A stretch of 40,953 bases of DNA. It comes from Escherichia phage vB_Ec_Tarrare. A program made the position numbers and the translations under genes. The stretch lies in the sequence record OQ507919.1; one strand, given 5' to 3'. Within the stretch, counting starts at the first letter, position 1, and each line of letters starts with the position of its first letter. Below, piece by piece: positions 4,024 through 40,716 of this stretch. Below the pieces are notes generated by a model. That model did no database searches. It saw only the letters and a program-made list of their open reading frames with translations, and was not told where the DNA came from.

Positions 4024-4028
4024 TGAAT

Positions 4029-4051
4029 TAATACGACTCACTATTGAGGAG
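4029..4051 (+). promoter_or_regulatory. phage RNAP promoter (phi1.1A-like)
   Basis: taatacgactcactattgaggag; T7 -17 to -1 consensus except T at -1. Confidence 0.8.
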
Positions 4052-4055
4052 TGAT

Positions 4056-4078
4056 TAATACGACTCACTAATGGGAAA
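4056..4078 (+). promoter_or_regulatory. phage RNAP promoter (phi1.1B-like)
   Basis: taatacgactcactaatgggaaa, in tandem 27 bp downstream of the first promoter. Confidence 0.8.
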
Positions 4079-4176
4079 CCTTAAGGGTCTTAGAGATTTA
4101 ACTTTAAGACCTTTAAGTTCTAATTTAAGATTTAATTTAAGATTACTAAGAGATTAACTTTAAGGAGACTTTAAGT
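4079..4176 (+). other. AT-rich region downstream of tandem promoters; candidate primary replication origin and leader of gene 1.1
   Basis: About 100 bp of low-GC sequence with reiterated tttaag / aatttaag / aactttaag units immediately after phi1.1A/B. In T7 the primary origin occupies this position. Confidence 0.4.
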
Positions 4177-4314
4177 ATGCGTAATTTTGAGAAAACTACT
4201 CGTAGCAAAGCACGTAACTGGACTTACGAAGAAGTCTACGGTAACAAAGAAGGTCGCAAGTTTAACAAGACTAAGCGTGACCGTTCTCATAAACGCAATT
4301 GGGAGGCTCAATAA
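4177..4314 (+). CDS. 1.1: gene 1.1 small basic protein
   Basis: 45 aa, MRNFEKTTRSKARNWTYEEVYGNKEGRKFNKTKRDRSHKRNWEAQ; close match to T7 gp1.1 as recalled; SD aaggag upstream. Too short for the ORF track. Confidence 0.8.
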   Translation: MRNFEKTTRSKARNWTYEEVYGNKEGRKFNKTKRDRSHKRNWEAQ

Positions 4315-34229: not shown

Positions 34230-34286
34230 TAACTTAACACTCAAGGAAAGACGTGTAGTCCACGGATGGACTCTCAAGGAGGTATC

Positions 34287-37288: not shown

Positions 37289-39052
37289 ATGTCTTATACC
37301 CAAAGTAACCGCAATGCTCTCATTGTGGCTCAACTAAAGGGTGACTTCGTAGCGTTCCTATTCGTCTTATGGAAGGCGTTAAACCTTCCGGTTCCTACCC
37401 GTTGTCAGATTGACATGGCTAAGGTATTGGCGAATGGGGACAACAAGAAGTTTATCCTACAGGCTTTCCGTGGTATCGGTAAGTCATTCATCACTTGTGC
37501 GTTCGTTGTGTGGACGTTATGGCGTGATCCTCAGATGAAGATACTCATTGTGTCTGCCTCTAAGGAACGTGCTGACGCTAACTCCATCTTCATCAAGAAC
37601 ATCATTGATTTGCTGCCTTTCCTTGCTGAGTTGAAACCTCGCGCTGGTCAACGTGACTCTGTGATTAGTTTTGACGTAGGCCCTGCTAAGCCTGACCATT
37701 CTCCTAGTGTGAAGTCCGTAGGTATCACTGGTCAGTTGACTGGTAGCCGTGCTGACATCATCATTGCGGATGACGTTGAGATTCCGTCTAACAGTTCCAC
37801 TATGGGCGCTCGTGAGAAGCTCTGGACTCTCGTTCAGGAATTTGCTGCATTGTTGAAACCTCTGGAGACCTCTCGTGTTATCTACCTTGGTACGCCTCAG
37901 ACAGAGATGACTCTCTATAAGGAACTTGAGGACAACCGTGGTTACACTACGATTATCTGGCCCGCTCTTTATCCACGCTCTAAGGAGGAAGACTTGTACT
38001 ACAGCAACCGTCTGGCTCCTATGCTCCGTGAAGAGTACAATGAGAATCCAGAAGGTCTTGCAGGTACTCCTACTGACCCTGTACGATTCGATACTGACGA
38101 TCTTCGTGAGCGTGAGTTGGAATACGGTAAGGCTGGCTTCACTTTGCAGTTCATGCTTAACCCTAACCTTAGTGATGCCGAGAAGTACCCTCTGAGGCTC
38201 CGTGACGCGATCGTAGCGGCTCTGGACTTAGAGAAGGCCCCAATGCATTACCAATGGCTCCCGAACCGTCAGAACATTATTGAGGACTTACCTAACGTTG
38301 GTCTTAAGGGTGATGATCTACATACGTATCATGAGTGCTCCAGTAACTCTGGTCAGTACCAACAGAAGATACTTGTGGTTGACCCTAGTGGTCGCGGTAA
38401 GGACGAAACAGGTTACGCCGTGTTGTACACTCTGAACGGCTACATCTACCTAATGGAAGCTGGTGGTTTCCGTGAAGGTTACTCCGATAAGACCCTTGAG
38501 GCTCTCGCTAGGAAAGCCAAACAGTGGAAGGTTCAAACGGTTGTCTACGAGAGTAACTTCGGTGACGGTATGTTTGGTAAGGTGTTTAGTCCTATCCTTC
38601 TTAAACATCATAATTGCATCATGGAAGAGATTCGTGCTCGTGGTATGAAGGAAGTACGTATTTGTGATACCTTAGAGCCTGTCATGCAGACTCACCGCTT
38701 GGTTATCCGAGATGAGGTCATTAGGGCAGACTATCAGACTGCTCGTGATGCTGACGGTAAACATGATGTCAAATACTCGCTGTTCTACCAGATGACTCGC
38801 ATCACTCGTGAGAAAGGTGCTCTTGCTCATGATGACCGATTGGATGCCTTAGCGTTAGGCGTAGAGTTCCTACGTGAGTCCATGCAACTGGATAGCGTCA
38901 AGGTTGAAGGTGAGGTGCTTGCAGACTTCCTTGAAGATCACATGAGTCGTCCAACTATTGGCGCTCAGAGTATCATTGAGATGTCTTTAGGTGGTATCGA
39001 CTTGTACGCAGAGGATGAAGGCTGGGGTAACTCTCAGTTCATCGAATGGTGA
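37289..39052 (+). CDS. 19: terminase large subunit (DNA maturase B)
   Basis: 587 aa; ATPase and nuclease regions; collinear with T7 gp19. Confidence 0.97.
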
Positions 39053-39075
39053 CTTATGCATAGATAGTGCATAAG
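39053..39075 (+). repeat. perfect inverted repeat immediately after the terminase stop
   Basis: cttatgca-tagatag-tgcataag; 8-bp arms, 7-nt loop. Confidence 0.7.
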
Positions 39076-39133
39076 GATTCACTTTAGGCCACGGAAGGCC
39101 AATACCCTAAGTTGTTGAATAGACACGATAAAT

Positions 39134-39156
39134 TAATACGACTCACTATTGGGAGA
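39134..39156 (+). promoter_or_regulatory. phage RNAP promoter (phiOR-like)
   Basis: taatacgactcactattgggaga, between genes 19 and 19.5. Confidence 0.9.
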
Positions 39157-39298
39157 GGAGGGACTAAAGGTTACATATAGTGTACTGAATGCATAAACAT
39201 AAAGTGCATAAAGTATGCATACCTAATACCCTTAGAGGATGGTTGTTATATTGATATTAATACAACCTTAACTTAAGGAACAACATAAGGAGGCCATA

Positions 39299-39448
39299 AT
39301 GTTCCGCACAGTGTTGAACCTATTGCGGCATAGAGTGACCTACCGCTTTCTTCTGGTACTTGTTGCTGCCCTTGGGTTCTCATCTCTTACTACAGACCTC
39401 AGTACACTGGAGTCTACCGTTTGTTCTGTATTCACTTGTGTCGATTAA
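39299..39448 (+). CDS. 19.5: gene 19.5 protein
   Basis: 49 aa, MFRTVLNLLRHRVTYRFLLVLVAALGFSSLTTDLSTLESTVCSVFTCVD; near-identical to T7 gp19.5 as recalled; SD aaggagg. Too short for the ORF track. Confidence 0.8.
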   Translation: MFRTVLNLLRHRVTYRFLLVLVAALGFSSLTTDLSTLESTVCSVFTCVD

Positions 39449-39519
39449 GATAATGATCGAACGCTAAGCTCACCGAGGGATTCGAAGGTATGATTACATC
39501 ACACCATCTCATCCCTATA

Positions 39520-40010
39520 GAGTCAAGTCCTAAGGTTATACCTATAGGCCCTCTAATGGTCTATCCTAAGGTCTATACCTAAGGGTAGGCCATACCTATT
39601 GGCTACCTAGAGATAAGCCTAAGGAGGCTCCTAGAGAGGCCCTAAGGAGTCCTTTAAAATATACCATAAAAATCTGAGTGACTATCTCATAGTTTAAACA
39701 TTTGGATTTACCCCCATAGGGTCACTTCAAGTCCCATAAAGACATCCCCATCCTAAGGTTTCTACTCAAAGAGAGACCATAGGAGACCTTGAGAGACCAT
39801 AAAGAGGTGGGTAGTGTGGTACTTTGAGTTATCTATAAGTGTGTCTCTATGTGTTCCTATCTGTTATCACTCCTAAGGTATCCTCTTAAGGTCATATCCT
39901 AAGGTCATCTCTTAAGGTATCAACATAAGGAGGAGGAGACTACACTTAAAGTATATACATAAAGACCACATAAAGACCATACATAAAGTGTATACATAAA
40001 GATGCCTTGT
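39520..40010 (+). repeat. genome-end non-coding region with arrays of short direct repeats (cctaaggt / ccataaag / cataaagac units)
   Basis: No ORF of 60 aa or more; reiterated heptamer-like units such as tcctaaggt (at least 6 copies) and cataaaga (4 copies at 39950-40000), corresponding to the CCTAAAG / CATAAAGAC arrays inside and next to the T7 terminal repeat. Confidence 0.6.
39685..39877 (+). repeat. approximate single-copy terminal repeat / concatemer junction (physical genome ends)
   Basis: tctcatagt ... acccccataggg ... gtgtctctatgtgttcctatctgttatcactcctaagg parallels the T7 terminal repeat (TCTCACAGTGT...CCCCCATAGGGGG...GTCTCTCTGTGTCCCTATCTGTTACAGTCTCCTAAAG) as recalled. Boundaries are inferred. 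Confidence 0.3.
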
Positions 40011-40048
40011 AGTTAGCTATAGAGAGTTATCTCTAATCATGGTCTTAT

Positions 40049-40071
40049 TAATACAACTCACTATTGGGAGA
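40049..40071 (+). promoter_or_regulatory. phage RNAP promoter (phiOL-like)
   Basis: taatacaactcactattgggaga (A for G at -11), in the same relative place as T7 phiOL. Confidence 0.75.
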
Positions 40072-40104
40072 TACTCTATAGACTACTTAAAGAGGAGGGT
40101 TATC

Positions 40105-40548
40105 ATGTATCAAGGATTAACTATATCAAATGGTGTCTTAATAAGGGAGTCAACAGGTAAACCTTGTAAGACATTCTCTAACGGTAAATACCTAAGGATA
40201 AACCATAAAGGCCGGATGTATTACCTACACCGTGTCTTGTGGGAACTTACACACGGCTCAATACCTAAGGGTTACACTATAGACCATATAGACGGTAATC
40301 CTACAAATAACAATATTGACAACCTAAGGTTAGCCTCTTATAGTGAGAACAACATGAATCGGGTATCTACGGTAGACAATGGCCTACCTCAAGGTATCTA
40401 CTGGTGTAACTCTAAGAGTCGCTATGTGGCTCAGGTGGTAGCTCAAGGCGTTAAGAGAACAAAGACCTCAAAGAGCCTTGATGTAGTCACTGAGTGGGTT
40501 AAAGAGACACGAAAAGAGATTCATAAAGAATTTGCCATTAAGTGTTGA
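40105..40548 (+). CDS. HNH-AP2 homing endonuclease-like protein in the left-end leader
   Basis: 147 aa from the ATG at 40105 (SD aggagg); YTIDHIDGNPTNNNIDNLRLASYSENNMN is the HNH motif, with an AP2-like C-terminal half; paralogous in type to gene 3.8. T7 has no gene between phiOL and the A promoters as far as I recall. Confidence 0.8.
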   Translation: MYQGLTISNGVLIRESTGKPCKTFSNGKYLRINHKGRMYYLHRVLWELTHGSIPKGYTIDHIDGNPTNNNIDNLRLASYSENNMNRVSTVDNGLPQGIYWCNSKSRYVAQVVAQGVKRTKTSKSLDVVTEWVKETRKEIHKEFAIKC

Positions 40549-40573
40549 CAAGACGATTAAGTTAATACATAAT
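40545..40573 (+). promoter_or_regulatory. candidate host sigma70 early promoter
   Basis: TTGACA (40545-40550), 17 nt spacer, CATAAT (40568-40573). Confidence 0.4.
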
Positions 40574-40686
40574 GACAACCGTCAACGAGACGAGAGGTCT
40601 CCGAGAGTGACAAGACTACGAGTTATCACTTCGCCCTCATAAAGTCTCCAAGTAGCCACCTAGAAGGCATACGAAAATAACTAGGG

Positions 40687-40716
40687 TTGACAAGGTAACA
40701 CGAAGTAAGATAGAAT
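40687..40716 (+). promoter_or_regulatory. candidate host sigma70 early promoter (A-type)
   Basis: TTGACA (40687-40692), 18 nt spacer, TAGAAT (40711-40716); resembles the T7 A2/A3 promoters (TTGACA...GTAAGATA). Confidence 0.5.

What the first reader, a model, noticed from the sequence alone, without database searches (positions are those of the whole stretch)
39053..39221. Cluster of five TGCATA motifs and a perfect hairpin flanking the phiOR promoter
Between the terminase stop and gene 19.5, the hexamer TGCATA occurs five times in one orientation (39057, 39068, 39190, 39205, 39216), against an expectation of roughly 0.04 in 170 bp. Two copies form the arms of a perfect 8-bp inverted repeat (39053-39075) and three lie in gcataaa / gtgcataaa / tatgcata units just after the transcription start. 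In T7 the right end near phiOR is implicated in concatemer processing and packaging, so this could be a protein-binding array (terminase or a host factor) or an RNA structure element.
Basis: seen in the sequence. Interest (0 to 1): 0.4.

Follow-up and report, generated by a model that had tools for sequence, protein, structure and literature searches.

The report
Conserved TGCATA sites flanking phiOR promoter
The short DNA word TGCATA occurs five times around a late promoter near the right end of this T7-like phage genome. The same cluster sits at the same distance from that promoter in T7, T3, K11 and several other phage genera, so it is probably a set of docking sites for an unidentified factor rather than an RNA fold.

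Summary
All five TGCATA copies and the perfect 8-bp inverted repeat are at the stated coordinates. Shuffles of the 246-nt spacer give a mean of 0.14 copies and never more than 3. TGCATA is the second most clustered hexamer in the window.

The cluster is conserved. Across 11 lineages of T7-like phages, TATGCA/TGCATA is the most enriched hexamer in the gene 19–19.5 spacer (38 seen, 1.8 expected).

The conservation pattern favours duplex-DNA recognition over RNA structure:
- The hairpin arms keep their sequence, but no change is compensated.
- The extended motif (YTTATGCAYT) is inverted between T7-like and T3-like phages.
- The upstream copy stays at −83 (±1–2) from the phiOR start while the stop codon and a neighbouring hairpin shift.

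No binding factor was identified. T3 and T7 share the motif yet package type-specifically, so it is unlikely to set terminase specificity. One T7-like group lacks every copy, so the motif is dispensable.

No record or paper I could reach describes this feature. Interest is moderate. Two neighbouring hairpins do covary and are probably genuine structures.

The parts
39053..39075 (.). Upstream dyad CTTATGCA-N7-TGCATAAG, which the report calls HP1. It holds TGCATA copies 1 and 2 (39057-39062, 39068-39073) and is centred 87 bp upstream of the phiOR start.
   Evidence: perfect 8-bp inverted repeat; no compensated change in 20 relatives; the 3' arm TGCA core sits at -83 in the window, T7, L019, PZL-Ah1, T3-like, S523-like and K11, and at -82, -84 and -81 in AP10, EamP-L1 and L008.
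39076..39086 (.). Conserved block GGATTCACTTT after the dyad. It carries a degenerate third unit (TTCA at 39078-39081, 10 bp after copy 2; this is TGCA in T7 and AP10).
   Evidence: G38, A40, C43 and A44 of the first sequence are invariant. One search shows the T7 and AP10 sequences.
39087..39100 (+). HP2: hairpin GGCC-ACGGAA-GGCC. It is a neighbour of the motif cluster, not a TGCATA site.
   Evidence: The stems covary (GGCC/GGCC, GACC/GGTC, GGGAC/GTCCC, GCCAC/GTGGC, GGTC/GACC) and the loop ANGGAN is conserved.
39134..39156 (+). phiOR promoter (TAATACGACTCACTATTGGGAGA), with the start G at 39151.
   Evidence: 1 mismatch to the T7 consensus. (aligned with the annotated T7 phiOR).
39183..39223 (.). 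Downstream array in the phiOR leader: TACTGAATGCATAAACATAAAGTGCATAAAGTATGCATACC. It holds TGCATA copies 3-5 (39190, 39205, 39216).
   Evidence: AGTGCATAAAG (39203-39213) and TACTGAATG (39183-39191) are invariant across 11 Teseptimavirus-group sequences that otherwise diverge.
39241..39267 (+). HP3: hairpin GGTTGT-(15 nt, A+T-rich)-ACAACC upstream of the gene 19.5 ribosome-binding site. It is a neighbour of the cluster, not a TGCATA site.
   Evidence: A hairpin is predicted at this place in all 11 lineages, with at least 6 different stem sequences.

Best explanation
The TGCATA copies are instances of a longer, nearly palindromic duplex-DNA motif. Its consensus is YTTATGCAYT, and the ideal palindrome would be TTATGCATAA. 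The copies bracket the phiOR promoter. A dyad sits at a fixed position about 87 bp upstream of the start, and one to three copies lie 39-69 bp downstream.

I propose they are recognition sites for a sequence-specific DNA-binding factor. That factor would be either a host protein common to Enterobacterales or a core phage protein. When bound, it would wrap or loop the roughly 150 bp that contain phiOR and so modulate initiation there.

phiOR is a secondary replication origin (PMC8373140). From my own knowledge of the T7 literature, it is also the promoter whose transcription runs into the concatemer junction during packaging.

Shown here: local enrichment of the motif, its conservation across genera, the absence of compensated changes, the orientation flips, and the constant spacing to the promoter.

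Inferred, not shown: that a protein binds, which protein it is, and what binding does.
For: - Enrichment in this window and in T7.
- TATGCA/TGCATA is the most enriched hexamer in the gene 19-19.5 spacer over 11 lineages: 38 seen against 1.8 expected, with at least 2 copies in 10 of 11.
- All three YTTATGCAYT sites in the window and both in T7 lie in this spacer.
- The dyad arms are conserved in sequence while the 7-nt spacer varies freely but keeps its length. When an arm mutates, the change is not compensated.
- TAAAGTGCATAAAG is on the + strand in the window, T7 and L019. Its reverse complement is on the + strand in T3-like phages, EamP-L1 and K11.
- The upstream core stays at -83 (range -81 to -84) in 10 lineages. 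Over the same lineages the gene 19 stop moves from -99 to about -111 and the HP2 loop from -58 to -63. The sequence between is only 20-50% identical.
- The two best-conserved copies are 137 bp apart in both the window and T7.
- AGTGCATAAAG is the longest invariant block of the leader after the promoter and initial transcribed region.
- Evolved, shrunken T7 clones keep every copy while deleting 10 bp right beside the array.
Against: - No binding factor was identified.
- A T7-like group (HZP2, HZ2R8, AH67C600_Q5) lacks every copy yet carries nearly the full T7 gene set. The motif is therefore dispensable, and a dedicated phage-encoded binder is unlikely.
- HNH endonuclease genes have replaced much of the upstream dyad region in some S523-like phages.
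- Downstream copies are not fixed in position or number.
- In this window both clusters fold well as + strand RNA (z = -3.3) and less well as - strand RNA. T7 tolerates U-G pairs at the base of the upstream stem.
- The lineages share ancestry, so the counts are not independent.
[quoted passage not shown] That paper does not report this spacer specifically.
Confidence: 0.4

Rival explanations
1. RNA hairpins. The upstream inverted repeat would be a stem-loop at the 3' end of the gene 19 message in read-through late transcripts. The downstream copies would form a stem-loop in the phiOR/gene 19.5 leader. Both would affect RNA stability or processing.
For: In the window the upstream region folds at -21.9 kcal/mol (z = -3.3) and the leader segment at -13.4 kcal/mol (z = -3.3). 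The - strand folds less well, with z = -2.2 and -0.9. The local hairpins persist in folds of the whole read-through RNA for both the window and T7. U-G pairs are tolerated at the base of the T7 stem. The neighbouring hairpins HP2 and HP3 do covary, so structured RNA is plausible in this spacer.
Against: None of the 7 stem pairs shows a compensated change, and single-arm mutations occur in L008, L013, L017, L019 and PZL-Ah1. RNAalifold predicts no consensus stem there. In T3-like phages the downstream copies are direct repeats that cannot pair with each other, and the motif is inverted, so the RNA sequence differs. The predicted leader pairings use different registers in the window and T7. A fixed distance to a downstream promoter has no obvious meaning for an RNA hairpin. 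Rfam has no match.
Confidence: 0.23
2. A physical DNA element of the secondary origin. The motifs are self-complementary, alternating purine-pyrimidine tracts (for example GTATGCATAC). They would melt, kink or extrude easily and so help open the duplex next to phiOR, with no specific protein involved.
For: The spacer is 64% A+T. The copies are short palindromes (TATGCATA, ATGCAT) made of alternating purine and pyrimidine, as the sequence shows directly. phiOR is a secondary origin, and its plasmid form depends on loss of RNase H, which implies RNA-primed opening (PMC8373140). Such a property would be independent of orientation.
Against: A purely physical role should tolerate other alternating words. 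Yet TGCA, ATGCA and TATGCA top the enrichment lists at k = 4, 5 and 6, and other alternating hexamers do not appear there. The primary origin of this same window uses a different repeat (TTTAAG) and has no TGCA. The upstream dyad lies outside the transcribed, opened region.
Confidence: 0.12
3. Terminase (pac-type) recognition array, one of the reader's options. The small or large terminase subunit would bind the repeats to start concatemer processing.
For: Arrays of short repeats are typical of small-terminase binding sites (general knowledge). The right-end region with phiOR is linked to packaging, and PacB is said to be recognised by gp18 (PMC9860248).
Against: The motif is shared by T3-like and T7-like phages, whose packaging is type-specific (title of Tsuchida et al. 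1996, cited). It is also shared across phages with different promoter types. It lies about 620 bp left of the terminal repeat. A T7-like group with 99% identical gp19 and 97% identical gp18 lacks all copies.
Confidence: 0.07
4. No present function. The copies would be inherited remnants, or would be carried along by constraint on neighbouring elements.
For: The cluster is dispensable in the HZP2/AH67C600_Q5 group and nearly absent in Dickeya phage JA10. All carriers share ancestry.
Against: The motif persists where surrounding sequence has diverged to 20-50% identity. It changes position and orientation yet keeps its sequence. Its spacing to the promoter is held by compensating indels.
Confidence: 0.1
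5. DnaA boxes. The extended motif TTATGCAC(T) resembles the E. coli DnaA box TTATNCACA, so host DnaA would bind next to the secondary origin.
For: There is an 8-of-9 match at 39066-39074 and 39203-39211 on the - strand (TTATGCACT). The strict consensus TTATGCACA is present at the homologous upstream site in K11, L019 and PZL-Ah1. K11 has TTATTCACT downstream, varying at the free fifth position.
Against: There is no strict DnaA box in this spacer in the window or in T7. Half of the copies have T instead of C at position 8. As far as I know, T7 replication does not need DnaA.
Confidence: 0.05

Closest known systems
T7 secondary replication origin at phiOR (phage promoter plus A+T-rich downstream region)
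   Same: Same locus by homology. The window aligns with T7 39131-39390 at about 78% identity, the promoter is in the same place, and the leader is A+T-rich. PMC8373140 treats phiOR as a functional origin.
   Different: The accessible descriptions of the origin name only the promoter. The TGCATA sites are not part of any description or annotation I could find. Two of the five copies lie upstream of the promoter.
Operator pairs that flank a promoter and act through DNA looping (lac, gal and deo type; textbook knowledge)
   Same: A dyad with conserved arms and a free spacer of fixed length. Further copies sit on the other side of the promoter. There is a constant distance to the start site, and 137 bp between the two best-kept copies.
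   Different: No repressor is known. T7-type RNA polymerases are not known to be regulated by operators in nature. The downstream copies vary in position.
Small-terminase recognition arrays and the T3/T7 PacB element
   Same: Short repeated words in the right-end region of the genome, near the promoter implicated in packaging (PMC9860248).
   Different: The motif is conserved between phages with different packaging specificity. It is far from the terminal repeat. It is absent in a T7-like group with nearly identical terminase.
E. coli DnaA box TTATNCACA
   Same: Seven to nine of nine positions match in many copies, and the match is exact in K11 and L019.
   Different: The strict consensus is not met in this window or in T7.
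T7 RNase III processing sites (R0.3 to R18.5) and intrinsic terminators
   Same: Hairpin-forming sequence between genes. The simple scan flags 39053-39075 as terminator-like.
   Different: The stem has only 8-9 pairs, mostly A-U. The T-rich tail is not conserved in T7. There is no covariation and no Rfam match.

Membership tests
Conserved structured RNA element (upstream hairpin 39053-39075) | Base pairs maintained by compensated changes across relatives | tested here: not met
   of 7 pairs, 3 are invariant, 2 vary on one side and 2 are broken, with none changed on both sides. RNAalifold predicts no stem there.
Conserved structured RNA element (upstream hairpin 39053-39075) | Thermodynamically favoured fold in the sequence itself | tested here: met
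   -21.9 kcal/mol, z = -3.3, and 1 of 200 shuffles folds as well.
Intrinsic (rho-independent) terminator | G+C-rich stem followed by a conserved run of U | tested here: not met
   flags the window copy (3 G-C pairs, tail GATTCACTTT). T7 has GGGATGCACTATAG at the same place, so the tail is not conserved.
T7-type RNase III site | Irregular duplex of about two helical turns | tested here: not met
   The stem has 8-9 pairs, or 14 with the outer GGUGA/UCACU pairs, which are only 72% paired across relatives. The size requirement comes from general knowledge.
DnaA box | Match to TT(A/T)TNCACA | tested here: not met
   3 strict boxes in the window and 1 in T7, none in the spacer. The spacer copies are TTATGCACT or TTATGCAT.
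T7-type secondary origin (phiOR) | Phage promoter followed by an A+T-rich region, homologous to T7 phiOR | tested here: met
   The spacer is 64% A+T.
T7-type secondary origin (phiOR) | Supports initiation of DNA synthesis | not testable with these tools
   This needs a plasmid replication assay such as the one in PMC8373140.
Protein-binding operator or repeated-site array on duplex DNA | Sequence conserved independently of strand and orientation, with constrained spacing to its target | tested here: met
Protein-binding operator or repeated-site array on duplex DNA | A protein that binds the sites | not testable with these tools
   The one phage candidate that differed between motif-bearing and motif-less T7 relatives (gp3.8, an HNH protein) is found in only 268 records. 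T3 is not among the listed hits, and only 95 Klebsiella records have it.
Terminase pac recognition site | Determines type-specific packaging and lies within the minimal packaging fragment | tested here: inconclusive
   The motif is shared by T3-like and T7-like phages and is absent in a group with 97-99% identical terminase. The primary papers that define the T7 and T3 pac fragments are not held.

The most novel reading that the evidence does not exclude
The dyad at -87 and the leader copies are operators for an unrecognised sequence-specific DNA-binding protein, host or phage. This protein would loop the DNA around phiOR and so gate when this promoter fires. That would give T7-like phages a regulated switch for secondary-origin replication or for the transcription that starts packaging. 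Such control has not been described for a T7-type promoter.
Probability: 0.15. Interest if true: 0.65.

Novelty: new variant of a known kind. Interest (0 to 1): 0.42.

Why it matters
T7 is among the most thoroughly studied viruses. Its right end is used in origin plasmids, in packaging and transduction vectors, and in synthetic phage genomes. A conserved, promoter-anchored motif that no record annotates suggests that phiOR has a partner nobody has looked for. If a factor binds there, it could explain how the phage times secondary-origin firing or the start of packaging, and it would matter for the design of T7-based replicons and transducing particles. If the sites turn out to be inert, the result still marks which parts of this spacer can be removed safely.

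Tried and rejected
1. Ancient tandem duplication of a 'dyad plus promoter' module. Three direct-repeat pairs hinted at this. Local alignment of the upstream and downstream halves is no better than shuffles in the window (p = 0.11) or in T7 (p = 0.61).
2. The same motif at other regulatory sites. The other 19 copies in the window are isolated and mostly in coding sequence. The primary origin (4027-4180) uses TTTAAG repeats and has no TGCA.
3. Sigma-70 promoter: none found in 38900-39500.
4. Known RNA family: no Rfam match in 38800-40200 apart from one chance-level hit.
5. Strict DnaA box: not met.
6. A dedicated phage-encoded binder, by gene-content comparison. The motif-less AH67C600_Q5 has almost all T7 genes. 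The best differential candidate, gp3.8 (HNH), is sporadic among motif-bearing phages.
7. Helical phasing of the copies. The 11- and 10-bp steps upstream follow simply from homology, and the downstream steps (15, 11, 6-7, 21-22 bp) are not consistent.
8. A scan of IMG/VR for the 14-mer TAAAGTGCATAAAG returned mostly chance hits and was uninformative.
9. Literature. The Chung and Hinkle 1990 packaging papers and the T3 pac papers are not held. Searches on phiOR, pacB and packaging signal gave no description of this motif.
10. Resemblances recalled from memory only and not tested: the CytR octamer GTTGCATT, the NsrR half-site, and the XerC arm GCGCATAA.

Full report
**What the window is.** The 40,953-base window is a circularly permuted genome of a T7-like phage. 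It holds gene 19 (37289-39052), a T7-type promoter at 39134-39156 and a gene 19.5 homologue (39299-39448). After these come the terminal-repeat and concatemer-junction region, phiOL at 40049, and then the early region. The spacer between genes 19 and 19.5 aligns with T7 39131-39390 at about 78% identity, and the promoter coincides with the annotated T7 phiOR. The closest public phages are only about 78% identical over the late region, so this is a distinct relative of T7.

**Checking the observation.**
- Genome-wide the word is not unusual: 26 copies on both strands against 18 +/- 4 in shuffles.
- Five of the twelve + strand copies lie within 165 bp.
- Dinucleotide-preserving shuffles of the 246-nt spacer give a mean of 0.14 copies, and none of 20,000 exceeds 3.
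- Among all hexamers, TGCATA is the second most clustered in the window. The first is TTTAAG, in the A+T-rich part of the primary origin.
- Only 3 of 60 shuffled genomes contain any hexamer clustered this tightly.
- T7 shows the same pattern, with 3 of its 8 TGCATA and 5 of its 116 TGCA in the homologous 160 bp.

**Conservation.** I collected the region downstream of gene 19 from 72 IMG/VR contigs and from annotated records. The lineages include:
- T7 and its close relatives;
- T3-like phages;
- Klebsiella phage K11;
- Escherichia phage S523 and its relatives;
- Erwinia phage EamP-L1;
- Yersinia phage AP10;
- Dickeya phage JA10.

Over 11 lineages, TATGCA/TGCATA is the most enriched hexamer in the spacer (38 seen, 1.8 expected, at least two copies in 10 of 11). 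TGCA and ATGCA head the 4-mer and 5-mer lists, ahead of the Shine-Dalgarno and promoter words. The motif extends to YTTATGCAYT. All three such sites in the window and both in T7 lie in this spacer. About 300 Klebsiella phage records match the first 62 bases of the query (end of gene 19, the dyad and the next hairpin) at 84-90% identity. Within the T7 group, AGTGCATAAAG (39203-39213) is the longest invariant stretch of the leader after the promoter and initial transcribed region.

**Structure or sequence?** In this window the upstream inverted repeat and the leader segment both fold well as + strand RNA (z = -3.3 each) and less well as - strand RNA. Relatives do not support a conserved structure.
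- On an alignment of 20 distinct sequences, none of the seven stem pairs shows a compensated change. Three are invariant, and the others vary on one side or break.
- Single-arm mutations occur in L008, L013, L017, L019 and PZL-Ah1.
- RNAalifold predicts no consensus stem there.
- The 7-nt spacer between the arms varies freely in sequence but not in length. That is the signature of a binding dyad as much as of a loop.
- The predicted leader pairings differ in register between the window and T7.
- In T3-like phages the two leader copies are direct repeats that cannot pair with each other.

By contrast, two neighbouring hairpins behave as structures. HP2 (39087-39100) changes its stem by paired substitutions while keeping an ANGGAN loop. 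HP3 (39241-39267) is predicted in all 11 lineages with at least six different stems.

**Orientation and spacing.** TAAAGTGCATAAAG is on the + strand in the window, T7 and L019. Its reverse complement (CTTTATGCACTTTA, or CTTTAAGTGAATAA-like in K11) is on the + strand in T3-like phages, EamP-L1 and K11. An RNA signal would not survive this inversion, but a duplex-DNA site would.

I then stacked the sequences without gaps on the phiOR start.
- The TGCA core of the upstream 3' arm is at -83 in the window, T7, L019, PZL-Ah1, two T3-like sequences, the S523 group and K11.
- It is at -82 in AP10, -84 in EamP-L1 and -81 in L008.
- In the same set the gene 19 stop codon ranges from -99 to about -111 and the HP2 loop from -58 to -63.
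- The intervening sequence is only 20-50% identical.

So indels on either side of HP2 cancel out, and the dyad is tied to the promoter rather than to the end of gene 19. The two best-conserved copies are 137 bp apart in both the window and T7. The downstream copies are less orderly, at +39 to +69.

**Most likely mechanism.** Together these patterns point to recognition of a nearly palindromic word on duplex DNA by a factor that acts on phiOR. A dyad sits upstream and satellites sit in the leader, so the promoter could be wrapped or looped. phiOR is a secondary origin of replication, and a plasmid can replicate from it (PMC8373140). It was one of only five promoters that changed when T7 was forced to adapt to an altered polymerase (PMC6171733). 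From my own knowledge, transcription from phiOR toward the concatemer junction is linked to packaging.

That a protein binds, which one, and with what effect are inferences. The motif is shared by phages with different promoter specificities and, judging by the title of Tsuchida et al. 1996, different packaging specificities. The binder would therefore be a host protein common to Enterobacterales or a conserved core phage protein, not a type-specific terminase determinant.

**Limits.**
- The cluster is dispensable. The HZP2/HZ2R8/AH67C600_Q5 group lacks every copy. It carries an HNH-plus-HTH gene right after gene 19 and has almost the complete T7 gene set, including 97-99% identical terminase subunits.
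- JA10 keeps only one copy.
- HNH genes have replaced much of the upstream region in some S523-like phages.
- The only T7 gene that separated motif-bearing from motif-less genomes, gene 3.8 (HNH), is too sporadic to be the binder.
- Laboratory-evolved, shrunken T7 clones keep every copy and delete 10 bp right next to the array, which is only anecdotal support.
- The lineages are related, so enrichment counts overstate independent evidence.

**Comparison with what is known.** Detailed records of T7, K11, Yersinia phage Y and phiA1122 annotate nothing but phiOR in this spacer. Rfam has no family there. The papers I could search do not mention the motif, and the primary packaging papers of 1990-1996 are not in the library, so I cannot rule out an older description. 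The nearest known kinds are operator pairs flanking a promoter, repeated sites at origins and pac sites, and, by sequence, the DnaA box. The strict DnaA consensus is not met here.

**Verdict.** The feature is real, conserved and, in what I could check, undescribed, in a very well-studied locus. It is most likely a set of DNA recognition sites coupled to phiOR. The evidence is comparative only, and the element is non-essential. Interest is moderate.

Noticed in passing
window 39087-39100: Hairpin GGCC-ACGGAA-GGCC between the dyad and phiOR. Its stem covaries across genera, and the loop ANGGAN closed by C-G is conserved even in a distant contig (L060, GGTC-ACGGAA-GACC). From memory it fits the CsrA/RsmE hairpin consensus CANGGANG, with a second conserved GGA (AAGGAT, 39073-39078) about 18 nt upstream. 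Eight other hairpins with an ANGGAN loop exist in the window, for example at 34262.
   Followed up: partly
window 39241-39267: Hairpin GGTTGT-(15 nt, A+T-rich)-ACAACC about 30 nt upstream of the gene 19.5 start. A hairpin is predicted at the same place in all 11 lineages, with at least six different stem sequences.
   Followed up: partly
L004-L006, L012, L015, L016, L018, L032 (about 2140-2590); L028, L038, L039: In several relatives, HNH endonuclease genes (Pfam HNH_3, one also with HTH_23) are inserted directly after the gene 19 stop codon. They replace the dyad region. The T7-like carriers also lack the downstream TGCATA copies.
   Followed up: partly
window 40106-40548: An HNH_3 endonuclease gene (147 aa, E = 3e-20) lies just downstream of phiOL, ahead of the sigma-70-like early-promoter sequences visible near 40540-40700. 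T7 has no gene in that position.
   Followed up: partly
window 4027-4180: Primary-origin region after gene 1. It has two tandem phage promoters (about 4027 and 4056) followed by an A+T-rich array of TTTAAG/TTAAG units. TTTAAG is the most clustered hexamer in the window.
   Followed up: partly
window 39940-40010: Four to five ACATAAAG units lie upstream of phiOL. ACATAA is the third most clustered hexamer. The same TAAAG ending recurs in the phiOR leader (CATAAAG, GCATAAAG).
   Followed up: no
window 39680-39870: The window runs through the concatemer junction with a single copy of the terminal repeat, so it is a circularised assembly. ATCTGTT, the T7 class II pause/termination signal as I recall it, is at about 39860.
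   Followed up: no
L039, about 2700-2850 (downstream of its phiOR): A tandem expansion of about ten copies of TAGTGACTACTCT lies immediately after the TGCATA cluster in one S523-like contig.
   Followed up: no
L078 (T7_180S) and L077 (T7_300S), compared with T7 39320-39400: Laboratory T7 clones with reduced genomes deleted the gene 19.5 ribosome-binding site and start (180S), or 10 bp just after the TGCATA array (300S). Both left all TGCA copies intact.
   Followed up: partly
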